Virus record (IMG/VR): IMGVR_UViG_3300047160_019164
Span: 28,464-92,463 of that record
DNA from: a virus
Reading direction: 5' to 3' (one strand)
Length of the DNA: 64,000 nt
The position numbers and the translations under genes are program-made. Shown piece by piece: positions 4,701-39,158 of this stretch; the first letter of the stretch is position 1; the number at the start of each line of letters is the position of its first letter. The notes below the pieces were generated by a model. The model was not told where the DNA came from. It was given only the letters and a program-made list of their open reading frames with translations, and made no database searches.

Positions 4701-5561
4701 GAGCGGTTGGAGAAGTTCAAGGCTACAGCCGAGAAACGCAACAAGGAGTGGAACGACGAAGCTGTGCTCGACGCCATCGACACCATCATGGCGGAGTACG
4801 AGCGTGCGGATGGCTACAAGGCGCGCAAGAAGAACGACGGCACACGCGTCGCTCATCCGCCGCACGTGCAGGTCGCTCTCATTCTGAAGGAACGCGGCGA
4901 AGAGGTGCATGCCGGTTCGAAGATCGGCTACGTGGTGGTGGACGGGTCGAAGTCGCCGATGAAGGTGATTCCCGCCAGTGACTTCACCGGCGTGGAGGCA
5001 GATCGCTGGTACCTGTGGGAGAACCTCGTGTGGCCACCGACGGAGCGTCTACTCGTCGCGGCGTTCCCCGACCACGAGTGGAAGTCGTGGGGCAAGGTGC
5101 GGCCCAAGAAGCCGCGATTGCCACGCGGCAAGAAGACGGCGCAGCTCGCATCCCCTGAAGTCAAGCCTCCCACCGCACGGCGCCGTGCGGTGAAGACTCC
5201 TGCGCTCGTTGCTGGCGGCTCCGTGGCGGTGCCGAAGCAAGCACCACCGCCAGCGGCTCCGGCCAAGGCCGAACCGGCTTCTTGGATGCCGCAGGTCGTC
5301 TCCCGCACCGCACGGCGCCGTGCGGTGGACCAGCCACCCCTCGTAGCCCCAAAGGAAGAAGGGACGGGCATGGAGTGGCTCCTACCCGTGGGCCGTGGGA
5401 CGAATCTCGACGAGGTGACGAAGGCGCTCAAGGCAGCACCGGGGCGCACACCCGTGTTCTTGGAAGTGGCGCTCCAAGGTGCACGCCTCCGCGTCGACTT
5501 GCGGATCAAGGTGAAGCCGTCGAAGGAGCTTTGGTCGTTCGTCACTTCATTGCTCGTCTGA
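1719..5561 (+). CDS. polB: Family B DNA polymerase with an intein and a DnaE-CTD-like C-terminal extension
   Basis: Exo motifs DLETD, WNGDRFDF and Y[intein]CEQD; Pol motifs DFARLYPSII, KIAANSFFG, YADTDS, KKRYA. Confidence 0.95.
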   Translation: MNQENYVNAYVDGGEIVLLKRVDGKLVEKRTPAEYVTYYEQSKVPSELVRALKTSENVLSMVQEKQWLRVHWKRPYRKSNKSDWEFDPRRFMAQDESSPFNERGIVSYEADVHPVLRHFVDCGVGIAKPKRCYIDLETDSRVSFARKEEMRILCYTIVDEDGGVVDSACLQEDTDASEAKLLTRMWDLLHKYDQVCAWNGDRFDFPVMFARSQGREVNVDVNRWLWLDHLMVFKRMNVTASESGDEKTSMRLQDVATAVLKEGKDKFDGSKTWQAWARGDGSCRKEACPGCGEKHEHSARECMRRYCLTPDHKVLGEDLRWRPLGECKAGDVILGFEENGPKGYGRQYRRAIVKSVERAIAPLYEVELASGKKFRVTPDHKWLVARVRKDTGCVNQMEWRETVDLLFDGRSIRSGGKRITNAGSSAAIKLFDVWEEDETKEAGWLAGMLDGEGSLSVKKNKGQRSAGGFTIQVGQVLGPTADRLHALIREKSVVEPKVCYEAPRGPISRKSLKKIIVRGAMHEKLKFLGTVRPERLIPKVDFDRLGRVEARNQFDPVVRVTPIPDGEIVMMETSTKTFVADGYPMHNCEQDTKLLAKIEKKTGYLELFFSLCQACGIFPDSPSTNPTHQVDGFMLRLGKERHTHFRTRKFGEEVEAFEGAFVMIPEYKGIVRNVHVGDFARLYPSIIITWNMSPETKVGVYDHSTKLVTRVDGKKESMREEWARAPRTNVVFDTTAQGILPTALLEMIRLRAYWNDRKASLTPGTEEWHDADRRSTAYKIAANSFFGVAGSPFSRYYDKQVGESITQAGVYLLKATIAEGLTFKPPVRTGYADTDSMFADRVTKAEFEAFVKHCNAELYPRITKAHGCKAYDIKFAYEKQFDRLVMTGKKRYAARYAHYKGKLAAKDSKPEIKGLEFKRGDTAKLARQLQEEAIRMLLGNWEEPFTAPTEVVDDYHKLIAKFQREVLEEKLPTELCVISKNITKKLPPSQREVEERLEKFKATAEKRNKEWNDEAVLDAIDTIMAEYERADGYKARKKNDGTRVAHPPHVQVALILKERGEEVHAGSKIGYVVVDGSKSPMKVIPASDFTGVEADRWYLWENLVWPPTERLLVAAFPDHEWKSWGKVRPKKPRLPRGKKTAQLASPEVKPPTARRRAVKTPALVAGGSVAVPKQAPPPAAPAKAEPASWMPQVVSRTARRRAVDQPPLVAPKEEGTGMEWLLPVGRGTNLDEVTKALKAAPGRTPVFLEVALQGARLRVDLRIKVKPSKELWSFVTSLLV
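2637..3479 (+). mobile_element. Intein (281 aa) with a LAGLIDADG-type homing endonuclease motif, inserted in PolB ExoIII
   Basis: Starts CLTPDHKV; block B 'FRVTPDHKWL'; 'WLAGMLDGEGSL'; ends 'FVADGYPMHN' followed by Cys+1. Confidence 0.93.
5171..5192. repeat. Palindrome copy 1 (in polB)
   Basis: CACCGCACGGCGCCGTGCGGTG; encodes TARRRAV. Confidence 0.95.
5306..5327. repeat. Palindrome copy 2 (in polB)
   Basis: Same 22-bp core; encodes TARRRAV. Confidence 0.95.
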
Positions 5562-8350: not shown

Positions 8351-8386
8351 AAGAGCCCACCGCACGGCGCCGTGCGGTGGGCTCTT
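8351..8386. repeat. Palindrome copy 3, extended to 36 bp (intergenic)
   Basis: AAGAGC-core-GCTCTT. Confidence 0.95.
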
Positions 8387-12412: not shown

Positions 12413-14361
12413 TGCGCTACTTGGCAGAGCTGCACCTCAAGAACTGGAAGTGCTTTCGTGGCGAGCACGTGCTCAAGTTCGAGCCGAAGGCGTACGCAGT
12501 ACTTGCCACGATGGACCGCGACGTCGAGCGTTCCAATTGGCTCGGGAAGTCGTCGCTCCTCGAGGCCATTGCCTTCGCGATGTACGGATGGCACACCGAG
12601 GAAGGTGGCGACAACGCGCTCATCACACGCGGCGAGAAGGTGGCTGAAGCGAAGCTCGTCTTCGATGATGGAAGCCAGGTCATGCGCACCAAGCACGCCG
12701 GCAAACCGAAGCGGCTTTTCTACCACCACGGTGGGAAGGACTTGATGGGTGACGAAGCACAGTCGCTCATTCTCGATAACGTTGGGTTGAGTGAGCAGGA
12801 CTTCTTCGCTACGTGCTTTTTCGAACAGAAGAAGATGTCGCGCCTGGTGACGATGGAAGCCAGCGAACGGATGGCTGTGGTGGTGGAGTGGCTACGGCTC
12901 GGAGTACTGGAGCAGTGCGAAGCGCTCACGCTGCATCACGTGCGTATGTTGCTCGAGAAGGAGCACAAGATGCGCGCACAATTGGAATCGCAGCTTGCGG
13001 TTCAGAAGCACGCGCTTGGGACGTTCCCCAACATCGAAGTCCTCGTCAACGAGTTGGAGTCGGTGCGCAAGGAAGTGGCGGAGCACGCCGACAAGGTCGC
13101 GGAGCTGGAAGACCAGGAGAAGCGCTCGAACCGCGCCGTGTCGCTTCGTAAGGAGTGCGAGCGGTGGGGTAGCCTCAAGGCCGACGGGTTGGCGCTCAGC
13201 GAGGAGATCAAGTCGACGGATGAGTTGGCGCTACGGCGCGCCCTGGAAGAAGCGCGCGATGCGTTGCGCGAGGCTGACAGCAAGCAAGGGCTTCTCGAAC
13301 GAGAGGTGTCGCTGAAGCGCACCGTCGCTGTCGGGAAGTTTGATGGCGCCTGTCCTGTCGTGAAGTTCGCTTGCCCCGCACGCGACGATATCAACGACAT
13401 GACGGAGCAGAGCCGCAAAGAGCTGAAGAAGAGCGACGAGCGTCTGCGCGAGTTGCTCGTCGCGCGCGATGCCGTGCGCAAGGGTGTGAACCGCGCCGAA
13501 GCCGACTACCAAGAGCTGGCGCGCAAGCGCGATCGACTTGATTACATCCGCAAGGAGATGGAGCGCATCTTGCCGATGCGCGCCGAGTGGAAGAAGTGCA
13601 AGGACGACGAGCAGGACGGGGAGAAGCTGTCCACCGCACGGCGCCGTGCGGTGGAGAAGTCGATCGAGTTGGCGTCGGCCAAGAAGGTGCTCGCTAGTTC
13701 GGTGGACAGCTACAAGGCCACGCTTCAACCCATCGAGGAGTTGACCGCGGAGCTGAAGGACATCACCAACAAGCTCGCCACCGCGCGCGAAGCGATGATC
13801 ATCTTCGGCAAGAACGGAGCGCAACGTCGCATCGCGGAGACGGCGCTCGAGGACATTCAACAGAGCGCCAACACCATCCTCGCCGACTGCGGTATCCCGC
13901 TCAGCATCGTCATCCGTTGGGCGCGTGAAGGGTCGGGCCTTGCCAACACGTGCAGCGATTGCGGGTACCCGTTTCCCAAGTCGGCCAAGGACCGCAAGTG
14001 CACGCATTGCGGCGCCGACCGTGGTCCCAACATCATCAACAAGCTGGACATCGTGATGACGGACCGAAGTGGTGCTGCGGAAGACCTCGTGGGCGGTGCG
14101 TTGCAGCTCGCGGCGTCGACATGGCTGCGCACCGACCGAAACAGTGGATGGAGTGCAGCTTTCATCGATGAGCCGTTCGGTGCGCTTGATCGCGCCAACT
14201 TGCGCGCGTTCAGCTCGCACCTCCACGGCATGCTCAACTCGCGCTACGGGTTCGCGCAGTCGTTCGTCATCGCGCATCATGCGTCTGTCCTCGACGCACT
14301 CCCCGGACGCATCCTCATCACGTCGGACGGTAAGTACTCGAGCGTGAAGGTGGTGTCGTGA
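12412..14361 (+). CDS. sbcC: SbcC/Rad50-like ABC ATPase
   Basis: LKNWKCF; Walker A NWLGKSS; Q-loop; coiled coil; Walker B FIDEPFGALD; H-loop. Confidence 0.88.
   Translation: MRYLAELHLKNWKCFRGEHVLKFEPKAYAVLATMDRDVERSNWLGKSSLLEAIAFAMYGWHTEEGGDNALITRGEKVAEAKLVFDDGSQVMRTKHAGKPKRLFYHHGGKDLMGDEAQSLILDNVGLSEQDFFATCFFEQKKMSRLVTMEASERMAVVVEWLRLGVLEQCEALTLHHVRMLLEKEHKMRAQLESQLAVQKHALGTFPNIEVLVNELESVRKEVAEHADKVAELEDQEKRSNRAVSLRKECERWGSLKADGLALSEEIKSTDELALRRALEEARDALREADSKQGLLEREVSLKRTVAVGKFDGACPVVKFACPARDDINDMTEQSRKELKKSDERLRELLVARDAVRKGVNRAEADYQELARKRDRLDYIRKEMERILPMRAEWKKCKDDEQDGEKLSTARRRAVEKSIELASAKKVLASSVDSYKATLQPIEELTAELKDITNKLATAREAMIIFGKNGAQRRIAETALEDIQQSANTILADCGIPLSIVIRWAREGSGLANTCSDCGYPFPKSAKDRKCTHCGADRGPNIINKLDIVMTDRSGAAEDLVGGALQLAASTWLRTDRNSGWSAAFIDEPFGALDRANLRAFSSHLHGMLNSRYGFAQSFVIAHHASVLDALPGRILITSDGKYSSVKVVS
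13630..13655. repeat. Palindrome copy 4 (in the sbcC coiled coil)
   Basis: Encodes STARRRAVE. Confidence 0.95.
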
Positions 14362-18356: not shown

Positions 18357-19042
18357 CGATGGCGAGTTGCACGGTCGTCATCCCGGCGCACAACGAAGAG
18401 GACACCATTGGTGGACTCGTGGAGTGCGCGCTCGTGCACGCGGACCGCGTCATCGTGGCGAACGACTCGAGCACCGATCGAACGGAACAAGTGGCGGAGG
18501 AAGCGGGTGCAATCGTCGCTCTGGTTCCGCGTGAGCGTCGTGGCTTGGTGGGCGTCTACTCGTTCGGGCTCCGGGTCGCCGTTGCTCTCCACCGCACGGC
18601 GCCGTGCGGTGGACGTGGGGCGTACGTCTGCGAGATGGACGCGGGCGGCAGCCACGACCCGCACGAGCTACCCAAGTTCTGGAAGGCTCTCGACGAAGGC
18701 GCCGACATCGCCGCGGGCTGTCGCTTTGCGTACGGGGGCGAGTACCTCGGGTCGTGGCAGCGGAAGAGCCTGAGCTACTTCGGCACCAAGCTCACCAACA
18801 TCGTGCACGGCACCAAGTGGTGCGACGCGACGAGTGGCTTCGTGGCGTACAGGTCATCGTCGCTCGATGCGCTCTTGCAGGTCCCCTACAAGTCGACGGG
18901 TCACTACTACCAGACGGAGATGCGTCTGCGCGCGCAGGCCATGGGCATGAAGACGACGGAAGTGCCCATCACGTACAGGAACAGCGGCTCGTCGCTCAAT
19001 TGGCGTAGCATCCGTGAGGCATTGTCCTTGGTGATGCGATAG
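18353..19042 (+). CDS. GT2 (GT-A) glycosyltransferase, DPM-synthase-like
   Basis: 'VVIPAHNEE', 'NDSSTDRT', 'MDAGGSHDP', 'DATSGF', 'EVPITY'. Confidence 0.88.
   Translation: MTMASCTVVIPAHNEEDTIGGLVECALVHADRVIVANDSSTDRTEQVAEEAGAIVALVPRERRGLVGVYSFGLRVAVALHRTAPCGGRGAYVCEMDAGGSHDPHELPKFWKALDEGADIAAGCRFAYGGEYLGSWQRKSLSYFGTKLTNIVHGTKWCDATSGFVAYRSSSLDALLQVPYKSTGHYYQTEMRLRAQAMGMKTTEVPITYRNSGSSLNWRSIREALSLVMR
18588..18613. repeat. Palindrome copy 5 (in GT2)
   Basis: Encodes HRTAPCGG. Confidence 0.95.
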
Positions 19043-20210: not shown

Positions 20211-20642
20211 ATGTCCGAAGGAGACCCGTTGCAGTGGGCTCGCGCCCTCGGTGCCGGAACTGCGATGGTGATGCACATTCCCACGGACACCGTGGCGAAG
20301 GTGAAGGCGTTCTACGACGGTGTGACCACGAAGTTCATCAGCCCCATCACCAACGAGCCCGTCAACGGGCCGGTGCTGGTGATGGAGGACGGGAACAGCT
20401 TCATGGCAGAGGACGAGAAGTCCTTTCACCGTATGACCATGCAACAAGCGCAGTTCTATCGCACCATGCAGCGCGTAATCGCCAACACGCTGCGCGAAGC
20501 CGCGCAGCTCCTCAAGTCGCTCGGTATTCCGGTCGACGTCGGCGTTTCGTTGTTGGTTGCTACGCTCAAGGCGCAGCTTCGTGTACTCGAAGCCAAGCCC
20601 GAAGCCATGCCGCAGACGCTTCCACCCGAGGAGATGCCCTGA
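20211..20642 (+). CDS. Hypothetical protein
   Basis: GGAGG RBS; phage-typical codon usage. Confidence 0.65.
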   Translation: MSEGDPLQWARALGAGTAMVMHIPTDTVAKVKAFYDGVTTKFISPITNEPVNGPVLVMEDGNSFMAEDEKSFHRMTMQQAQFYRTMQRVIANTLREAAQLLKSLGIPVDVGVSLLVATLKAQLRVLEAKPEAMPQTLPPEEMP

Positions 20643-21040
20643 TGCCGCCCAACACCAACGTCCCCGTCGCCGCCCACAACGCGCTCAAGCAAGTGATCGA
20701 CATGTATGGTCAGCTCCTCGTCGAACAGGAGCATAGGTTCATGATGGAGCGCGCGCAGTTGGAGCTTCAGATCAAGGACATCCACCACACGAACAACGAA
20801 GTGACCGCGCGCTGTCTCGAGATCGAGGGGAAGAACCAGAAGTTGGTCGCCACGAACGAAGGGCTCGCGGCCGACTTCGTGAAGATGACCCAACTGATTC
20901 AAGACCTGAAGGGGAGGGTCGACGAGCTGACGGAAGAGAACGATGCACTGAAGCGCGAGAATGAACGCTACGTACCGTCGCACCTGCGTCGAGAATCCCC
21001 TTCCCACGGCAATTACGGGAACGTGGGATCGGGTGGATGA
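20642..21040 (+). CDS. Coiled-coil hypothetical protein
   Basis: TGATG coupling; heptad pattern. Confidence 0.6.
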   Translation: MPPNTNVPVAAHNALKQVIDMYGQLLVEQEHRFMMERAQLELQIKDIHHTNNEVTARCLEIEGKNQKLVATNEGLAADFVKMTQLIQDLKGRVDELTEENDALKRENERYVPSHLRRESPSHGNYGNVGSGG

Positions 21041-21396
21041 TGGATGGTCCCAAGGCACTGCCGCCCTTCGTTATCGACGCGGCGCTAGGAAGTGGTGCAA
21101 TCGATCTCCAGAAGTGGCGCACGTGGATCGATATCTACGGTCCGATGTGCGCCGCGTGGCTGGTGAAGCACTTCAGTAAGACCATCAAGCAAGCGGGTCA
21201 CTTCAAGGTCTTCGTGCCACGACTCGTCGATCTGTCCTTGCAGAGCAAGCGCTTCCGCTGGTTCAAGCTCGCACTCGCGTACATCCGCAAGTCCACGCGC
21301 TGGCGTGTAATCGTGCGTGACGTGTGGCACAAGGACACCGACCGCGGCAAAGAATTCGACTTCAAGTGGATGTTGTCGAGGCATCGTCGTGGCTGA
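21037..21396 (+). CDS. Hypothetical protein
   Basis: Translationally coupled ORF. Confidence 0.55.
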   Translation: MMDGPKALPPFVIDAALGSGAIDLQKWRTWIDIYGPMCAAWLVKHFSKTIKQAGHFKVFVPRLVDLSLQSKRFRWFKLALAYIRKSTRWRVIVRDVWHKDTDRGKEFDFKWMLSRHRRG

Positions 21397-21648
21397 AGGT
21401 CGCTGGAAAGAGAAGTGGATCCCGCCGTGGGCTCCACATGTCGTCGGTGAGTACGACATGCCGCGCGAATTCCGCGAGGACGGGCTTCCCGAAGCGCAGT
21501 GGGTCGAGATGACCTGCACGCACGCGGAATGCGCAAGCCGGCCGAAGCCGCATTACCGAGTCCCGTGCACCAGTGGCAACGTCCGACAGCACGTCGCGCG
21601 GTTTGCACTGGTGCACATGCACAAGGATCCATTCGAAGGAGGGAAGTG

Positions 21649-22293
21649 ATGAGCGGGAAGTTCGTGGTGATAGAGGGTATTGATGGGTCTGGGAAGACGA
21701 GCTTGGTGAAGCTGATGGCGGCGGAGCTGCGGAAGCGTGGGTTCACCGTGCACGAGACGTACGAGCCCACGCACGGTGAGATCGGCGCGTTGGCGCGCAA
21801 GGCGTTCAGTGCGGAGTCGAAACACATCGACGACCCGCTTGCGTGGGCGAAGCAGGAGATGCTCCTCGCGGCCGATCGCATGCACCATCTGTTTGGTGAA
21901 GTGAACCCGGCGCTCGAGACGCACGACTACGTCATCTGCGATCGCTACGTCGGCAGCGGGTACGCGTACGGCATGGCGTCGCGTCCGAATTCCGTCTCCA
22001 CGTTGAGCGCGCATGGGTTCCTCTGCGGCATGTATGCGTTCGCGTGGAAGCCGGATTACTGCATCCTCGTCGACGTGCCGATCGAAGTGGCAGTGGAGCG
22101 CATGGCCAAGCGCACGGACAAGACGCGCTACGACGTCGACGTGGAGTTGCTCAAGCGGGTGCGTAGCATCTACAACAGCGAAGCCGCAGAGCATCGGCAC
22201 TGGTACACCATCCGTTCCGGTGCCATGACGGCCGAGCAGACATGTCTCGCAGCGCTCGATCGCACGGGCATCGGCCTGCGCAGAACCTCGTAA
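21649..22293 (+). CDS. tmk: Thymidylate kinase
   Basis: 'FVVIEGIDGSGKTS', 'EPT', 'AADR..H', 'CDRY..S..AY'. Confidence 0.92.
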   Translation: MSGKFVVIEGIDGSGKTSLVKLMAAELRKRGFTVHETYEPTHGEIGALARKAFSAESKHIDDPLAWAKQEMLLAADRMHHLFGEVNPALETHDYVICDRYVGSGYAYGMASRPNSVSTLSAHGFLCGMYAFAWKPDYCILVDVPIEVAVERMAKRTDKTRYDVDVELLKRVRSIYNSEAAEHRHWYTIRSGAMTAEQTCLAALDRTGIGLRRTS

Positions 22294-22400
22294 CCACCGC
22301 AAGCGAAAACGTCGGAGTGACGCGAGCGCGGTCCCTATAAGGTGGGGACTGTCTGTGGCAGGTCGGGCGCGAAACGGCGCTAGCTAGCGGCCTGCCGCAC

Positions 22401-22442
22401 CGAAAAAGTCCACCGCACGGCGCCGTGCGGTGGACTTTTTCG
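22401..22442. terminator. Bidirectional terminator-like 42-bp perfect palindrome containing a copy of the 24-bp repeat
   Basis: CGAAAAAGT-CCACCGCACGGCGCCGTGCGGTGG-ACTTTTTCG. Confidence 0.7.
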
Positions 22443-22494
22443 TATGAGAATCCCTCACGAAAAAGGAAATCGTCAGGGCTCGGACGATTTCATG

Positions 22495-22523
22495 TTGCAC
22501 AGGGATGCAATGCGGCTTATTGT
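22495..22523 (+). promoter_or_regulatory. Sigma70-like promoter of the early region
   Basis: TTGCAC-17 nt-TATTGT with an A-rich upstream tract; AGGAGG RBS and ATG22566 downstream. Confidence 0.6.
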
Positions 22524-22565
22524 TCTTCTCACGGTGAACACGACGGTGACGCAAGGAGGTGTGTG

Positions 22566-22790
22566 ATGGACATGCGACGTAGCCAAGCGGCAAAGGTGCT
22601 GGATAGTGTGCGCACGATGTTGGCCCAACGTGAGAGCCCGGAGAAGATCGAGAGGTATCTGTCGCTCCAGTTTGGCATCGAAGCCCTCGTCAAGTGCAGT
22701 GGCGAAGCGCACTCCAACGCGCACATCGACAATTGCGGTTGCTGTGCGCCGCGGTGGGGTTGGGTGGGCGATACCGTCAACATCAAGTAG
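22566..22790 (+). CDS. Small Cys-rich early protein
   Basis: AGGAGG RBS; HIDNCGCC. Confidence 0.6.
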   Translation: MDMRRSQAAKVLDSVRTMLAQRESPEKIERYLSLQFGIEALVKCSGEAHSNAHIDNCGCCAPRWGWVGDTVNIK

Positions 22791-22841
22791 GTCGAAACGG
22801 GCACCAGCCCGTCCGCACGTGATGCGTGCGCTGACGAGACC
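22790..22841 (+). ncRNA. Type II hammerhead ribozyme 1
   Basis: GGUC-GAAA-CGGGC(acca)GCCCG-UC^-CGCACG(ugaug)CGUGCG-CUGACGA-GACC; complete core and three stems. Confidence 0.9.
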
Positions 22842-22855
22842 AGGAGCAAGTAGCC

Positions 22856-23092
22856 ATGGACACCAGCAAGATCGCGATCGGGGAAGTCGTGAAGGCCACC
22901 GCCACCACGTATACGGGCAAGATGTACGGCGGCGGGCTCATCGCCGGGCAGCTCTACAAGGTGGTTGATATGAGTCACCTACGCTGTACGTTCGGCGGTC
23001 ACACCACGTTGTTCGTGCGCTCCGTCGACCGCAGCATCGACCGCGGCATCATTCCGGTGCGGAACGCGCACCTGGTGTTGGAGGTGGCGTGA
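22856..23092 (+). CDS. Hypothetical early protein
   Basis: AGGAG RBS directly after hammerhead 1. Confidence 0.65.
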   Translation: MDTSKIAIGEVVKATATTYTGKMYGGGLIAGQLYKVVDMSHLRCTFGGHTTLFVRSVDRSIDRGIIPVRNAHLVLEVA

Positions 23093-23373
23093 TGATCAAC
23101 CGTTATACGGTCGAGAACGCGGTGGTCGTTGCCAGCCTGCTCACGGAGCAGGGCTTCTTCGCGCATGTCTACTCGGACCAGGAGTCGGTCGTTTGCACCG
23201 ATGCGCCAGTAGCTAAGGTGCAAACGACCGAGCGCAAGGCGTTCGAGCCGATCGAAGTGGCGTACTACACCGGGACGTGGAAGCGGCAGGTGTGCAAGAC
23301 GCCCGCATCGTTCCGCAAGCTGGTGGACCGTTGCATCGACGAGGGCTGGGAAACGCGTACGCGCAAGGCGTGA
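23089..23373 (+). CDS. Hypothetical early protein
   Basis: GGAGG RBS; coupled to the upstream gene. Confidence 0.6.
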   Translation: MMINRYTVENAVVVASLLTEQGFFAHVYSDQESVVCTDAPVAKVQTTERKAFEPIEVAYYTGTWKRQVCKTPASFRKLVDRCIDEGWETRTRKA

Positions 23374-23377
23374 TGTA

Positions 23378-23439
23378 GGTCGAAACCACCGCACGGCGCC
23401 GTGCGGTGGTCCGGGCGTAAGGCGCCCGCTGACGAGACC
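23378..23439 (+). ncRNA. Type II hammerhead ribozyme 2 (stem III formed by the 24-bp palindrome)
   Basis: GGUC-GAAA-[CCACCGCACGGCGCCGUGCGGUGG]-UC^-CGGGCG(uaagg)CGCCCG-CUGACGA-GACC. Confidence 0.88.
23385..23410. repeat. Palindrome copy 7 (hammerhead 2 stem III); copy 6 is within 22401-22442
   Basis: ACCACCGCACGGCGCCGTGCGGTGGT. Confidence 0.95.
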
Positions 23440-23456
23440 ACGAGGAGCAAGCCGAC

Positions 23457-23828
23457 ATGAGGACCACGAGCTTCCACGGCCACGCGCTCAACCTCCCGGC
23501 CGGCCGACTCGGCCGCACTCAGCGCTACGCGCTGGAGCACATCTACGAAGAGGGACAGGACTCGACCGATCGTGCCCTCCACCTCCACGGTCGGGCAGCG
23601 CGCTACGCTAGCCGCTACGCCACCGCGCTCGCGAACATCGTCGACGCGAACCCGCACCTCTTCGCCGGCGGTCCGTTCGGACCGCGCGGCGGCCGCGGGT
23701 ACAAGTGGATTTGGCACGGACCGATCCAGGCACCCCGGTGCACCGCGCACGAGGACTGCCGCGCGTGCGTCGACGTCGCGCTCGCGTGCGATCAAGAAGC
23801 CACGCGGCATAACCCAAACAAGCGCTGA
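23457..23828 (+). CDS. Hypothetical early protein
   Basis: GAGGAG RBS directly after hammerhead 2. Confidence 0.6.
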   Translation: MRTTSFHGHALNLPAGRLGRTQRYALEHIYEEGQDSTDRALHLHGRAARYASRYATALANIVDANPHLFAGGPFGPRGGRGYKWIWHGPIQAPRCTAHEDCRACVDVALACDQEATRHNPNKR

Positions 23829-23856
23829 GGCGCAGCAACCCAAAGGAGCACAGAAG

Positions 23857-24813
23857 ATGCCCACCAAGAAGCCGTTCGATCGTGACAAGTGGCTCGAGGA
23901 GAAGCGCGCCAAGGTGCAGGACGCGAAGGAGATGCTGGAGACTGGGCTCACTGCACTGCGCACCAGCGACGAGTGGAAAGCGTGCATGACTGCCATCGCG
24001 AAGAACGCGCGCCTGCGTTACAGCGTTACCCGCTACAGTTTCGGAAACCAGATGATGCTCGCCTGTCAGTGCGCTGGTGCGAACCGACCGCAGCCCACGA
24101 GCGTCGCTACCTTCAAGGCGTGGCAGCGCGTCGGTCGCAGCGTGAAGAAGGGCGAGAAGGGGATGTTCATCCTCACGCCGAAGCCCTGGAAGCGCGAGGA
24201 GAAGCAAAGCGACGGCACCTCCAAGGAGCTGCGCGGCATGTCGTTCGGCGTGGCGCACGTGTTCGACATCGCGCAGACCGAAGGTGACGAGCTGCCTGTA
24301 CCGCCGCGCGTGACGGTGGACATCGAAGATGCCGCCACCTTCAGCGCGGACGTGGAGACGCTGCGCGAAGTGGCGCTCGCCATCGACGGCGAACCGGTGA
24401 GCGATATCGAGATCCGTGCCAACCAACCGGGCGACCCGACCAACGCGCAAGGCTGGTACGTCATCTCCACCAAGGCGATCGTCGTGGTGGAGCACCGCAG
24501 CCGCGCTCACATGTTCAAGACGCTCGTCCACGAGGTGGCGCACGCGTTGCTCCATCCCAAGGGCGACCACCACTCTACGCCCGAGCGCGAGGTCGAAGCT
24601 GAATCGACGGCGTTCATCGTCTGCCAGGTGCTCGGTCTCAGTACCGACGCCTTTAGCTTCCCGTACGTCGAGTCGTGGGCGCAGCGCGCGAGCTGCACGT
24701 CGAACGACATGATCGCCAAGTGCGGCGACCGCATCACCAAGGCGTCGCATACCATCTTGGATGCGCTCCTCGGCAAGCAAGTCGAAGAGCCCAACGAGGA
24801 AGAGGCTGCGTAA
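23857..24813 (+). CDS. ardC: ArdC-like antirestriction protein (ssDNA-binding N-domain plus zincin-like HExxH domain)
   Basis: 'YSFGNQ', 'VATFKAWQRVGRSVKKGEKG', 'VFDIAQTEG', 'LVHEVAH', 'EVEAESTA'. Confidence 0.85.
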   Translation: MPTKKPFDRDKWLEEKRAKVQDAKEMLETGLTALRTSDEWKACMTAIAKNARLRYSVTRYSFGNQMMLACQCAGANRPQPTSVATFKAWQRVGRSVKKGEKGMFILTPKPWKREEKQSDGTSKELRGMSFGVAHVFDIAQTEGDELPVPPRVTVDIEDAATFSADVETLREVALAIDGEPVSDIEIRANQPGDPTNAQGWYVISTKAIVVVEHRSRAHMFKTLVHEVAHALLHPKGDHHSTPEREVEAESTAFIVCQVLGLSTDAFSFPYVESWAQRASCTSNDMIAKCGDRITKASHTILDALLGKQVEEPNEEEAA

Positions 24814-25001
24814 TGGCTCGCTGGTCGCTCAAGCGGCTCAAGGAGCACGGCTTCGATAAGAGCACGAGTGACCGCGTTGGACGTCTCACGGTGGGCTGCT
24901 CGCAGTGCGCCGTGAGCGTCATCAACGGCACTCCGTGCCACGAACACGACTGCCCTAATTGGGTGCGGCGTAACAAGCTCGGACAGGAAGTGGAGGACTA
25001 G
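24813..25001 (+). CDS. Small Cys-rich protein
   Basis: CSQC..CHEHDC; TAATG coupling. Confidence 0.55.
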   Translation: MARWSLKRLKEHGFDKSTSDRVGRLTVGCSQCAVSVINGTPCHEHDCPNWVRRNKLGQEVED

Positions 25002-25171
25002 ATGGCCACCGACATCGAAGAGGTCGACGAGAATCGTTTGGAGACGTGGATCTTGCGCTTCAAGAAACACCGCATCCTTGCGCGCCAAGGCTCCTACGAA
25101 GCGCGCAAGTTCTACGAGCGCATGGCGCGTCGCGACGAGATCATGATTCGCACCTTCATGGCGGAAGCGTC

Positions 25172-25381
25172 GTGAAGCCGGTCCAGATCGGCGAAGAAGA
25201 CTATCACGACCATGTCGAAGGGAGTGACGGTATCTGCCTGAGCTGTGGCGAGTGGAAGTACGGTGACTGCGAGCCCGACGCCGAGAACTACAGGTGCGAC
25301 GAGTGCGGTGCGATGGAGGTGATGGGCGTCGAGATGGCGATGGTGGCCGGTCACATTCAACTAGTCGAAGATGACTCGTGA
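25172..25381 (+). CDS. Small Zn-ribbon protein
   Basis: CLSC..EPDA..CDEC. Confidence 0.6.
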   Translation: MKPVQIGEEDYHDHVEGSDGICLSCGEWKYGDCEPDAENYRCDECGAMEVMGVEMAMVAGHIQLVEDDS

Positions 25382-25390
25382 AGCCCGTGG

Positions 25391-25723
25391 GTGAAGGAGC
25401 GAGTGATGGTGGTGCGCGAATTCAAAGAGCTGCACGAGGGCTTCGTCTTCTACAAGTGGATGAGCGTGGCGGTCGCCAATCGCCGCATCAAGTGGCAATG
25501 GGTCAAGCACGAAGTGCGCGCACGCTTCGACCCTGAAGAAGTGCCCTGGGAGAAGGGTCAACCGCCGGTCATCTCGCACCACGTGGTGTACCGCTACTGG
25601 TCTCCCAAGCGTGGATGGCACTACGAGCATGACGAGGAGTGGCTGATGTCGGTCAACACCATGATGAGTCTCTCGGCCTTCAAGCCGGGGAAGGACCCGT
25701 GGGGGAAGGACTTGGACAAGTGA
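25391..25723 (+). CDS. Hypothetical protein
   Basis: ORF within a coupled run of small genes. Confidence 0.5.
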   Translation: MKERVMVVREFKELHEGFVFYKWMSVAVANRRIKWQWVKHEVRARFDPEEVPWEKGQPPVISHHVVYRYWSPKRGWHYEHDEEWLMSVNTMMSLSAFKPGKDPWGKDLDK

Positions 25724-27231: not shown

Positions 27232-27528
27232 ATGGCAACGCGGACGTACATGCGCGGGGGAGAGGTCGTCACCTTCGAGACCAAGGTGCTGTTCAGCACC
27301 ACGTACATCGACATGAGCGGCCTTCGCGTCCTCACGCACGCGCGCCAAGGCCGTTACATGCAGCCGACGCGTGAAGCGGCCGAAGAGGCGCTCAAGAACC
27401 TCCTCGAGAACAACACGGAGCAGCGGCTCGCCGACATCTACGGTCCGCAGTCCATCGGTACCTTCCGTGTCGACGCGTTCGAGTGTTACGAGCACGGCGA
27501 CCCTATTCACCTCTTGGAGAAGCCGTGA
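27232..27528 (+). CDS. Hypothetical protein
   Basis: GGAGG RBS. Confidence 0.6.
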   Translation: MATRTYMRGGEVVTFETKVLFSTTYIDMSGLRVLTHARQGRYMQPTREAAEEALKNLLENNTEQRLADIYGPQSIGTFRVDAFECYEHGDPIHLLEKP

Positions 27529-27599
27529 GCGACCTGGACGAAGACCCGCGCCACCGCATCGCCGTGAGCGACCTGGACGAAGACCCGCGCCACCGCATC
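27522..27599 (+). repeat. 39-bp direct tandem duplication
   Basis: GCCGTGAGCGACCTGGACGAAGACCCGCGCCACCGCATC x2. Confidence 0.95.
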
Positions 27600-27800
27600 G
27601 TCATCGACGGCGTGGCCTACAGCGGCAAGAAGCTCGCCGTCTATGCGTACGCGCTAGCGCTCAAGGTGTCGGTCGAAGCGGCAGCTTTGGTCGCCGTCTA
27701 CATGGACCTTCTGGTGCTCTACGACGTGTCGGTGTTCCCGCCGCAACGAGCCACGTTGCGCGCCACCCTGTTCGGCCCACGCAACGAAAGGTGTGCCTGA
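27525..27800 (+). CDS. Hypothetical protein with a duplicated N-terminus
   Basis: GTGA coupling. Confidence 0.5.
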   Translation: MSDLDEDPRHRIAVSDLDEDPRHRIVIDGVAYSGKKLAVYAYALALKVSVEAAALVAVYMDLLVLYDVSVFPPQRATLRATLFGPRNERCA

Positions 27801-28309
27801 TGCGCAAGCGACTCGTCGAGACCCCCTTCGGCAGCTCCGACCGCACGGCGCCGTGCGGTGGGGAACCGGCCACGCCAGGACTCCGCAAACGCGTCCAGAC
27901 GCACGAACCGCCCGTTGCTCCGGCCAACGCCCAAAGACGCGCCACGGAGGCAGCTATGGGGGGCGCGCTGGCCGATATCGATGCCGACATCGTGCGGCTT
28001 AGGGACCAGCTCGGCGTCGGGTTCGCCATCACGGTGGTGGCGCCCATCAACGCGCCAGGGTTCGAGACGTGTCGTATCGGCTTGAGCTGGCACCGGCTCA
28101 GCGCGTTGCAGGCGCACCTCCCTACGGCCACGCGCATCACCTTCGTGTCCACGCTGCGCGCGGGACTCGACTACATGTTCGAGTACGAGAAGCGCGTGGA
28201 CCGCGACGGCGAAGAGGCGACGCACCGTTGGCACCTAGAACAGCGCACCATCCGCGAGAAGGAGATGGACCGCCTCATCGAAGAGGTGAGGAAGGTGCGT
28301 GCGCGATGA
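27800..28309 (+). CDS. Hypothetical protein (contains the palindrome in frame)
   Basis: TGATG coupling; GAAAGG RBS. Confidence 0.55.
   Translation: MRKRLVETPFGSSDRTAPCGGEPATPGLRKRVQTHEPPVAPANAQRRATEAAMGGALADIDADIVRLRDQLGVGFAITVVAPINAPGFETCRIGLSWHRLSALQAHLPTATRITFVSTLRAGLDYMFEYEKRVDRDGEEATHRWHLEQRTIREKEMDRLIEEVRKVRAR
27840..27859. repeat. Palindrome copy 8 (coding)
   Basis: 20-bp core. Confidence 0.9.
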
Positions 28310-33870: not shown

Positions 33871-33894
33871 CCACCGCACGGCGCCGTGCGGTGG
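33871..33894. repeat. Palindrome copy 10 (3 nt upstream of the tRNA)
   Basis: Perfect 24-mer. Confidence 0.95.
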
Positions 33895-33897
33895 CAT

Positions 33898-33971
33898 TGC
33901 GCGGTAGAGCAACGGCAGCTCGCTAGGGGTTCATACCCTGGAAGTAGGAGGTTCGATTCCTCCCCGCGCGA
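33898..33971 (+). tRNA. Met-like tRNA with an atypical anticodon arm (CAT or TCA register)
   Basis: Acceptor TGCGCGG/CCGCGCG; D-arm GAGC/GCTC; T-arm GGAGG-TTCGATT-CCTCC; anticodon arm CTAGGG-GTTCATA-CCCTGG. Confidence 0.8.
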
Positions 33972-35435: not shown

Positions 35436-36151
35436 ACAAGCCAGCAAGGATCGGGAAGGGCCCGGTGACGCTCCTTCCCGACGTCCACGTGATGAAGGCC
35501 GGGAAGTCCGTTGCGTCGTTCGAGCTTATCGACCGCACGCCTAGAGCCGCCGACGCGTTCGCGCCGCTTGCTCATGCGCGCGCCGAAGCGAAACGCGTCG
35601 GCGGAACGCTCTTCGTCTCGGACGAGACGACGCTCGATTCATGGGCGTACGCACAGATCGGAGAGGCGCCGCGGCGCATCGCGCGTCTGCTCGTTCTCGG
35701 TCCTGCGTTCGTTCGACGTCTTGCACTCATCGCAGAGTGGTGTGCGCGCGACATCACCCCGCGGGCGCTCGAAGCCGCTGCGCTCGAATTCGACGCCACG
35801 GGCAAGCGCGGGCTCGCGAAGCACGCGCTTGCCTTACGTAAGCAGGCGCAGCGCCTCCGAGCGCTGAAAACGATATCGTGGCAGTCCATTCGATCAACGA
35901 GGGCGGCGGAGGCGGCGGAGGCGGCGGCAGAGGTGGCGGAGGTGGCGGAGGAGGCAGCGGAGGTGGCGGAGGTGGCGGAGGTGGCGGAGGAGTCGACGGC
36001 TAATCGCCATTGGGCGATTCGTCGGGCACGGTGGGTCGTTGGCTACGTCGGACGCACGTTCGCGGTCACGCTCGCGATCCCTGGCGTCGACCATGTCGCG
36101 CTCGGGATCTCGGCCGGTGACCTAATCGCGCGATTGGAGTCGGTCTCGTGA
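35432..36151 (+). CDS. Hypothetical protein with a low-complexity AEV repeat
   Basis: GTGA coupling. Confidence 0.5.
   Translation: MNKPARIGKGPVTLLPDVHVMKAGKSVASFELIDRTPRAADAFAPLAHARAEAKRVGGTLFVSDETTLDSWAYAQIGEAPRRIARLLVLGPAFVRRLALIAEWCARDITPRALEAAALEFDATGKRGLAKHALALRKQAQRLRALKTISWQSIRSTRAAEAAEAAAEVAEVAEEAAEVAEVAEVAEESTANRHWAIRRARWVVGYVGRTFAVTLAIPGVDHVALGISAGDLIARLESVS
35902..35992 (+). repeat. Degenerate 9-bp microsatellite (GCGGAGGTG)n
   Basis: Encodes AAEAAEAAAEVAEVAEEAAEVAEVAEVAEE. Confidence 0.85.
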
Positions 36152-39053: not shown

Positions 39054-39081
39054 CTCCACCGCACGGCGCCGTGCGGTGGAG
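39054..39081. repeat. Palindrome copy 12 (4 nt upstream of tRNA-Thr)
   Basis: Perfect 28-mer. Confidence 0.95.
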
Positions 39082-39085
39082 CTTG

Positions 39086-39158
39086 GCTGACGTAGCTCAA
39101 TCGGTAGAGCACCTGCTTTGTAAACAGGTGGTTATGGGTTCAACTCCCATCGTCAGCT
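39086..39158 (+). tRNA. tRNA-Thr(TGT)
   Basis: GCTGACG/CGTCAGC acceptor; GCTC-AATCGGTA-GAGC; anticodon loop TTTGTAA; ATGGG-TTCAACT-CCCAT. Confidence 0.92.

What the first reader, a model, noticed from the sequence alone, without database searches (positions are those of the whole stretch)
22790..22841. Hammerhead ribozyme 1 between a stop codon and the next RBS in the early operon
SEEN: a complete type II hammerhead with stem II GGUC/GACC, GAAA, stem III CGGGC/GCCCG, cleavage triplet GUC (22811-22813), stem I CGCACG/CGUGCG and CUGACGA. It overlaps the upstream TAG and abuts the AGGAG RBS of the next gene. KNOWN: hammerhead cleavage leaves a 5'-OH on the downstream product. INFERENCE: the early polycistronic mRNA self-processes into a 5'-OH, hairpin-capped message, acting as a natural insulator that may resist 5'-monophosphate-dependent decay.
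Basis: partly seen in the sequence, partly recalled or inferred. Interest (0 to 1): 0.78.

Follow-up and report, generated by a model that had tools for sequence, protein, structure and literature searches.

The report
Type II hammerhead ribozyme between phage genes
A genuine self-cutting RNA motif (a type II hammerhead ribozyme) fills the gap between two small genes of an uncultivated soil phage and has a twin 588 bases downstream; it is a clean new example of the clustered phage hammerheads described in 2011, not a new kind of element.

Summary
Window 22790-22841 (+) is a complete type II hammerhead, with every core nucleotide present and C17 at 22813. Its first G is the last base of the upstream TAG, and the AGGAG ribosome-binding site follows directly.

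- **More than chance:** a descriptor scan finds two such motifs in the window (the second at 23378-23439) against 0.01 expected, and no others in the 92-kb genome.
- **Rfam:** Hammerhead_II scores only 25.8 bits, below its cut-off of 37.
- **Independent model:** a covariance model built from 54 other phage examples scores HH1 at 74 bits (E 3e-18) and HH2 at 63 bits.
- **Family:** 99% of cells pair, and 10 of 12 variable pairs show compensatory changes. The layout "stop codon, ribozyme, RBS, start" is the family norm.

Perreault et al. 2011 already described type II hammerheads clustered around single genes in prophages, including anti-restriction genes. They proposed processing of long phage transcripts and showed cleavage for three clusters.

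Self-cleavage here is therefore very likely but untested. The "early" timing and the stabilising effect of the 5'-OH end are inference. The loop I/CAUCA pseudoknot is not a family feature.

This scan has found such hammerhead arrays before on other DNA. I class it as a new member of a known kind, of low to moderate interest.

The parts
22401..22442 (.). 42-bp perfect palindrome (the genome's dispersed 24-bp palindrome extended by A5/T5 flanks). It looks like a bidirectional intrinsic terminator and separates the thymidylate kinase gene from the hammerhead operon.
   Evidence: Weak ctRNA-like Rfam hits on both strands at 22397-22447 are this hairpin.
22495..22523 (+). Candidate sigma-70-type promoter, TTGCAC-17 nt-TATTGT. 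Weak and untested.
   Evidence: Read. It does not pass the consensus scan (3 of 6 in the -35 hexamer).
22566..22790 (+). Gene A, 74 aa, no known family. RBS AGGAGG at 22553-22558. Its TAG stop (22788-22790) shares G22790 with stem II of HH1.
   Evidence: The longer GTG start at 22425 lies inside the terminator-like hairpin and is unlikely.
22790..22841 (+). HH1, type II hammerhead ribozyme. Predicted cleavage after C22813.
22842..22846 (+). AGGAG Shine-Dalgarno of gene B, directly after the 3' strand of stem II and 9 nt before ATG 22856.
22856..23092 (+). Gene B, 78 aa, no known family.
   Evidence: No relatives in IMG/VR or JGI metagenomes by pattern and tblastn.
23089..23373 (+). Gene C, 94 aa, no known family. 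Its start overlaps the stop of gene B.
23378..23439 (+). HH2, second type II hammerhead with the same core and stem II. Its stem III is an 11-bp copy of the dispersed palindrome. Predicted cleavage after C23411.
23457..23828 (+). Gene D, 123 aa, no known family. RBS GGAG lies just after HH2.
23857..24813 (+). ArdC-like anti-restriction / metallopeptidase protein (probable start MPTKK).
   Evidence: (PF08401 1.6e-11, PF06114, phrog_7245).

Best explanation
HH1 is an active type II hammerhead ribozyme in the 65-nt gap between two small genes of a phage operon, and HH2 is its twin two genes downstream.

As RNA polymerase passes, stem III and stem I form as local hairpins. The 4-bp stem II then closes the three-way junction, and the RNA cuts itself after C22813.

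- The upstream message ends in the stem III hairpin plus UC with a 2',3'-cyclic phosphate.
- The downstream message begins with a 5'-OH directly on the stem I hairpin, followed by 11 nt of core and stem II strand and then the RBS.
- Only four base pairs hold the two products together, so they separate.

With HH2, one transcript becomes three messages: gene A; genes B and C (598 nt, 22814-23411); and gene D onward, including the ArdC-like gene.

Shown here: the motif, its significance, membership by sequence and structure, and the family-typical position.

Inferred: cleavage in this sequence, and that the terminal hairpins and unusual end chemistry uncouple the stability and translation of neighbouring cistrons.
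For: - All core positions and the three helices are present, and the hammerhead fold is the MFE for both elements.
- There are 2 motifs against 0.01 expected.
- The independent model R2 scores them at 74 and 63 bits.
- In IMG/VR, 124 of 127 matches to the core-plus-stem-II pattern fold as complete hammerheads.
- On the 56-row alignment A1 (54 of those phage examples plus HH1 and HH2), 99.3% of cells pair, against 71% in shuffles. All 6 stem I pairs and 4 of 6 stem III pairs show double-sided changes.
- Features outside my search pattern are conserved and present in HH1 and HH2: A before stem II in 87 of 87, a 6-bp stem I, and a U...G pentaloop closed by G-C.
- HH1 and HH2 differ in stem I by two compensated pairs (repeat D18).
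- Context is family-wide. In 100 of 112 cases a same-strand ORF ends within 40 nt upstream, with peaks at -1 and +2. In 98 of 112 a start lies within 60 nt downstream, 75 with an RBS. Random sites give 29% and 60%.
- Clusters are common: 158 hits in 100 loci.
- Published: phage and prophage hammerhead clusters cleave in vitro and in vivo, one flanking ardA (PMC3088659). Three type II hammerheads were shown active in D. vulgaris by end-specific RNA-seq (PMC8782182).
- The same palindromic hairpin that forms HH2 stem III ends 3-4 nt before both tRNA genes, that is, before RNase P cut sites. This fits a hairpin-then-cut design for 3' ends.
Against: - There are no experimental or RNA data for this phage.
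- The Rfam score is below the gathering cut-off.
- In a 231-nt context the thermodynamic MFE keeps stems I and III but pairs the GGUC strand elsewhere, so activity depends on co-transcriptional folding.
- No loop I/3'-tail pseudoknot of the kind that speeds many type II hammerheads; the tertiary contact is only inferred from conserved positions.
- No orthologous phage was found, so conservation at this site cannot be tested.
- A 5'-OH end is destabilising in hosts with RNase J1 (PMC3328962), and the host is unknown.
Confidence: 0.8

Rival explanations
1. The ribozymes are active, but their role is to shorten message life. Cleavage exposes a 5'-OH end to an RNase J-type exonuclease or removes protective upstream structure, setting low or transient expression of the downstream genes, as with glmS.
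For: The glmS 5'-OH product is degraded by RNase J1 (PMC3328962). The host is unknown, and reviews list different stabilities, in either direction, as the open question (PMC6765202).
Against: Stem I starts flush with the new 5' end in nearly all family members: 6 bp in 82 of 87. By general knowledge, not tested here, that is the arrangement that hinders 5'-end-dependent nucleases. A constitutive ribozyme is also an odd way merely to lower expression.
Confidence: 0.15
2. The two hammerheads act together in cleavage and ligation, circularising the 598-nt B-C RNA or joining the flanks (ribozyme-mediated splicing). Each half of a type II hammerhead is self-contained and both share the GGUC/GACC stem II, so a chimeric hammerhead could form.
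For: The 5' half of HH2 and the 3' half of HH1 can re-form a full hammerhead with the cyclic phosphate and the 5'-OH juxtaposed (read). Perreault et al. raised the possibility (PMC3088659).
Against: Perreault et al. looked for such products and detected none. 598 is not a multiple of 3 and both ORFs have stops, so a circle brings no evident gain. A 4-bp stem II favours product release. An earlier bold reading of this kind on other DNA in this scan fell on checking.
Confidence: 0.03
3. The motif is a decayed or chance look-alike with no activity, and the hairpins act only as ordinary intercistronic structures.
For: The Rfam score is below the cut-off, and the sequence is untested.
Against: About 0.01 is expected by chance against 2 observed. 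Every core base is intact. R2 gives 74 bits, in the upper part of the range for the family.
Confidence: 0.02

Closest known systems
Type II hammerhead ribozymes of bacteria and phages (Rfam RF02276; Perreault et al. 2011, PMC3088659)
   Same: Same core, same permutation (stems I and III closed, stem II open), same habitat (phage and prophage operons), and the same clustering around one or two small genes. In A. tumefaciens a triple cluster flanks ardA; here an ArdC-like gene lies in the message released by HH2.
   Different: This form has a 4-bp stem II (GGUC/GACC) and no loop I/3'-tail pseudoknot. Instead it has an invariant A before stem II and a U...G pentaloop on a 6-bp stem I, which is why the Rfam model scores it low. 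This form is itself abundant: at least 120 IMG/VR loci and 70 genome loci across many phyla.
Hammerhead arrays in other uncultivated phages noted earlier in this scan (7 and 9 per operon)
   Same: The same module of stop codon, type II hammerhead, RBS and start.
   Different: There are only two copies here. HH2 uniquely uses the phage's own dispersed palindrome as stem III.
RiboJ and similar synthetic ribozyme insulators
   Same: It works like one. A hammerhead upstream of an RBS cuts off the upstream RNA and leaves a defined 5' leader that begins with a hairpin.
   Different: RiboJ is an engineered part derived from a satellite-RNA hammerhead, not a relative of this element. The comparison rests on my own knowledge, not on a test here.
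glmS ribozyme
   Same: A self-cleaving RNA in a bacterial mRNA leader that yields a 5'-OH downstream product.
   Different: It is an unrelated fold, is ligand-dependent, and its outcome is decay of the message (PMC3328962). It is a caution against assuming that a 5'-OH end protects.

Membership tests
Hammerhead ribozyme | Core strand C3-U4-G5-A6-N7-G8-A9 | tested here: met
   CUGACGA at 22831-22837.
Hammerhead ribozyme | Core strand G12-A13-A14, A15.1-U16.1 pair, and a non-G at position 17 | tested here: met
   GAA at 22794-22796; A22797 pairs with U22812; C22813.
Hammerhead ribozyme | Three helices at the junction, paired next to the core (10.1-11.1, 1.1-2.1, 15.1-16.1) | tested here: met
   G22838-C22793, C22814-G22830, A22797-U22812. 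Stems of 4, 6 (+U.G) and 6 bp.
Type II hammerhead (RF02276) | Stems I and III closed by loops, stem II open | tested here: met
Type II hammerhead (RF02276) | Score at or above Rfam's gathering cut-off (37 bits) | tested here: not met
   HH1 scores 25.8 bits and HH2 21.9 bits. The model centres on forms with a 2-bp stem II and a pseudoknot tail.
Type II hammerhead (RF02276) | Pseudoknot between loop I and the tail 3' of stem II (in most but not all members) | tested here: not met
   At most 3 contiguous pairs with the 3' tail. The 5-bp UGAUG/CAUCA match lies upstream and is no more frequent in the family than in shuffled pairings.
GGUC/GACC sub-form of phage type II hammerheads (defined here) | A at -1, 6-bp stem I, U...G pentaloop closed by G-C, and a high score with a model built from other members | tested here: met
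   R2 gives 74 bits for HH1 and 63.2 for HH2.
Hammerhead ribozyme | Mg2+-dependent site-specific self-cleavage giving 2',3'-cyclic phosphate and 5'-OH ends | not testable with these tools
   No RNA run holds the stretch.

The most novel reading that the evidence does not exclude
Both hammerheads share stem II, and each half of a type II hammerhead is self-contained. The ends of the excised 598-nt two-gene RNA can therefore rebuild a chimeric hammerhead and be ligated, either by the ribozyme's reverse reaction or by a host RtcB-type ligase. That would give a circular phage mRNA. Alternatively the flanks could be joined, deleting genes B and C from part of the transcripts.
Probability: 0.03. Interest if true: 0.8.

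Novelty: new member of a known kind. Interest (0 to 1): 0.3.

Why it matters
The biological purpose of bacterial and phage hammerheads is still unsettled (PMC6765202). This locus adds a compact, well-defined example with several parts in one place:
- a likely terminator and a candidate promoter;
- three messages set off by two ribozymes;
- an anti-restriction-like gene in the last message;
- one ribozyme whose stem III is the same hairpin that follows many other genes and precedes both tRNAs.

That last point offers a testable idea: in this phage, ribozyme cuts and RNase P cuts both create hairpin-protected 3' ends. The locus does not change what is known about the class.

Tried and rejected
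- **Rfam whole-window scans** (gathering and E-value modes) did not list the hammerheads. Only a local search did.
- **Close relatives of the phage:** megablast against phage records found nothing. Pattern and tblastn searches with gene A, gene B and the ArdC-like protein found no relatives in IMG/VR or JGI metagenomes. Conservation at the orthologous site could not be tested.
- **Expression:** no RNA holder was listed among public runs. DNA contigs from four soil runs cover the locus in pieces. They also include unrelated contigs that match only the 55-nt HH1 stretch, with 11 differences and other flanks.
- **Loop I pseudoknot with CAUCA 22781-22785:** rejected as a family feature.
- **Other hammerheads:** relaxed scans for type I and III motifs and further type II copies in the whole genome found none.
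- **Gene association:** genes downstream of 92 family members are mostly small and unannotated, with no dominant family.
- **Host:** not identified. The portal protein is 25-26% identical to those of Ralstonia and Komagataeibacter phages, and part of PolB resembles mycobacteriophage genes.
- **Promoter scan:** the consensus scan found no promoter in 20500-25500.

Full report
**Observation.** The sequence at 22790-22841 (+) reads GGUC / GAAA / CGGGC-ACCA-GCCCG / UC / CGCACG-UGAUG-CGUGCG / CUGACGA / GACC. In hammerhead numbering:
- C3-A9 = 22831-22837;
- G10.1-C11.1 = 22838/22793;
- G12-A14 = 22794-22796;
- A15.1-U16.1 = 22797/22812;
- C17 = 22813;
- N1.1-N2.1 = C22814-G22830.

[quoted passage not shown] G22790 is the last base of the upstream TAG, AGGAG (22842-22846) follows the last base of stem II, and the next ATG is at 22856.

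**Is it more than chance?**
- A descriptor requiring GAAA, CUGANGA, A15.1-U16.1, a non-G at 17 and three stems finds two hits in the window: HH1, and a second element at 23378-23439. About 0.01 is expected from Markov shuffles.
- A relaxed scan of the whole 92,463-bp virus record for types I, II and III finds only these two.
- The hammerhead fold is the MFE and centroid structure of each isolated element.
- Rfam's Hammerhead_II model is the only family to match locally, but at 25.8 bits against a cut-off of 37. HH2 scores 21.9 bits.
- The low score reflects the sub-form.
- Of the 127 matches, 124 fold as complete hammerheads.
- On an alignment of 54 of them plus HH1 and HH2, 99.3% of cells pair, against 71% in shuffles and 26-47% with slid partners. 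All six stem I pairs and four of six stem III pairs carry double-sided changes.
- A covariance model built from the 54 foreign sequences alone scores HH1 at 74 bits (E 2.9e-18) and HH2 at 63.2 bits. That is well within the family's range.
- Positions that were not in my search pattern are conserved and are present in both window elements. These are an A immediately 5' of stem II (87 of 87), a 6-bp stem I (82 of 87), and a five-base loop beginning with U and ending with G, closed by G-C.

**Surroundings.**
- The window is the 3' two-thirds of an IMG/VR record from soil, with a CheckV completeness estimate of 100%.
- Genes on the + strand run from replication and recombination (PolB, UvsX-like, SbcCD-like) through thymidylate kinase (21499-22293) to terminase, portal and major head protein.
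- After thymidylate kinase comes a 42-bp perfect palindrome with A5/T5 flanks (22401-22442) that looks like a bidirectional terminator.
- A weak candidate promoter, TTGCAC-17-TATTGT, follows at 22495-22523. It is not picked up by the consensus scan.
- The operon then runs:
  - gene A (22566-22790, 74 aa, RBS AGGAGG);
  - HH1;
  - gene B (78 aa) and gene C (94 aa);
  - HH2;
  - gene D (123 aa);
  - an ArdC-like anti-restriction/metallopeptidase gene (about 23857-24813).
- The four small proteins match no family.
- 'Early' expression is plausible from this company but is not shown.

**How it most likely works.** The element would fold during transcription and cut after C22813.
- In the type II permutation the cut lies between two closed hairpins. 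The upstream RNA ends in the stem III hairpin plus UC with a cyclic phosphate. The downstream RNA starts with 5'-OH on the first pair of the stem I hairpin.
- Only the 4-bp stem II joins the products, so they should part. That also leaves the stretch next to the RBS single-stranded.
- With HH2 the transcript becomes three messages, the middle one 598 nt long (22814-23411).
- That hairpin ends shield RNAs from end-dependent nucleases is general knowledge, not tested here.
- The direction of the effect depends on the host's RNases. The 5'-OH product of glmS is degraded by RNase J1 in B. subtilis (PMC3328962). The host here is unknown.

**Family context.** Among 112 distinct family members:
- 100 have a same-strand ORF ending within 40 nt upstream, with the stop most often overlapping the first G or lying 2 nt before it;
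- 98 have a start within 60 nt downstream, 75 of them with an RBS-like motif;
- random positions in the same loci give 29% and 60%.

The downstream genes are short and varied. Isolated matches include ArdC, DUF932, amidoligase, Mor and small terminase. Many loci carry several hammerheads, 158 hits in 100 loci and up to seven in one locus. The same sub-form occurs in genomes of many bacterial phyla and in haloarchaea and methanogens.

**What is known.** Perreault et al. 2011 (PMC3088659) reported the first natural type II hammerheads.
- They noted that several hammerheads often flank single genes or short blocks in prophages.
- They proposed that long phage transcripts are processed into gene-length mRNAs.
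- They showed cleavage for three clusters in vitro and for the A. tumefaciens cluster, which flanks ardA, in vivo.
- They looked for spliced or circular products without finding any.

A 2019 review still lists the purpose as open (PMC6765202). Type II hammerheads next to phage genes were shown active in D. vulgaris (PMC8782182). This scan has also recorded arrays of seven and nine such ribozymes in other phages. The present finding is therefore a new member of a known kind.

**Points specific to this locus.**
1. HH1 and HH2 share 76% identity over 45 nt, including the RBS region (D18). They differ in stem I by two compensated pairs, so they look like diverged copies of one ribozyme-plus-RBS module.
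2. Stem III of HH2 is a copy of a 24-bp palindrome present 26 times in the genome.
   - Many copies sit 1-10 nt after stop codons and are extended by different complementary flanks.
   - Two end 3-4 nt before the two tRNA genes.
   - In three places the hairpin is therefore followed at once by an RNA cut site. This suggests, as inference, that it serves as a 3'-end hairpin.
   - Several copies lie inside long ORFs, including PolB, so this cannot be its only role.
3. The UGAUG/CAUCA pseudoknot proposed in a neighbouring note is not supported as a family feature.

**Limits.**
- No relatives of this phage were found.
- There are no RNA data.
- In a 231-nt context the MFE fold pairs the 5' strand of stem II elsewhere.

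Activity is very likely by analogy and sequence, but it is untested.

Noticed in passing
26 sites in the genome; in the window e.g. 8351-8386, 22401-22442, 23385-23410, 33871-33894, 39054-39081: A perfect palindrome with an invariant 18-nt core (CCGCACGGCGCCGTGCGG) occurs 26 times in the 92 kb genome. Many copies lie just after stop codons and are lengthened by different complementary flanks. Some lie inside long ORFs (PolB 5171-5192 and 5306-5327; 13630-13655; 18588-18613). Its role is open: terminator or 3'-end hairpin, or a protein-binding site.
   Followed up: partly
window 33871-33971 and 39054-39158: Both tRNA genes start 3-4 nt after a copy of the palindrome. RNase P cleavage would therefore leave the upstream RNA ending in that hairpin, the same hairpin-then-cut layout as HH2.
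   Followed up: partly
family alignment A1/A2; in the window A22789, U22820, G22824 and A23377, U23418, G23422: In the GGUC/GACC hammerhead sub-form the base before stem II is always A (87 of 87), the base after it is A or G (85 of 87), and loop I is a U...G pentaloop on a 6-bp stem. This probably marks a tertiary contact that replaces the usual pseudoknot.
   Followed up: partly
IMG/VR loci, e.g. L004, L011, L040, L081: About a fifth of family members have G after stem II, often as GUCAG, which is complementary to the CUGAC of the core and could mask it. HH1 and HH2 lack this.
   Followed up: no
window 27522-27599: An exact tandem duplication of 39 nt inside the ORF 27371-28309.
   Followed up: no
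window 35893-35995: A run of 9-nt GGC/GGA-rich repeats, which would encode a glycine-rich repeat if translated.
   Followed up: no
soil runs X1, X2, X4 laid on window 22788-22842: Other contigs in the same soil samples match only the 55-nt HH1 stretch, with 11 differences. Their flanks differ and again carry an RBS and ATG just downstream, so they are another phage with a related hammerhead.
   Followed up: no
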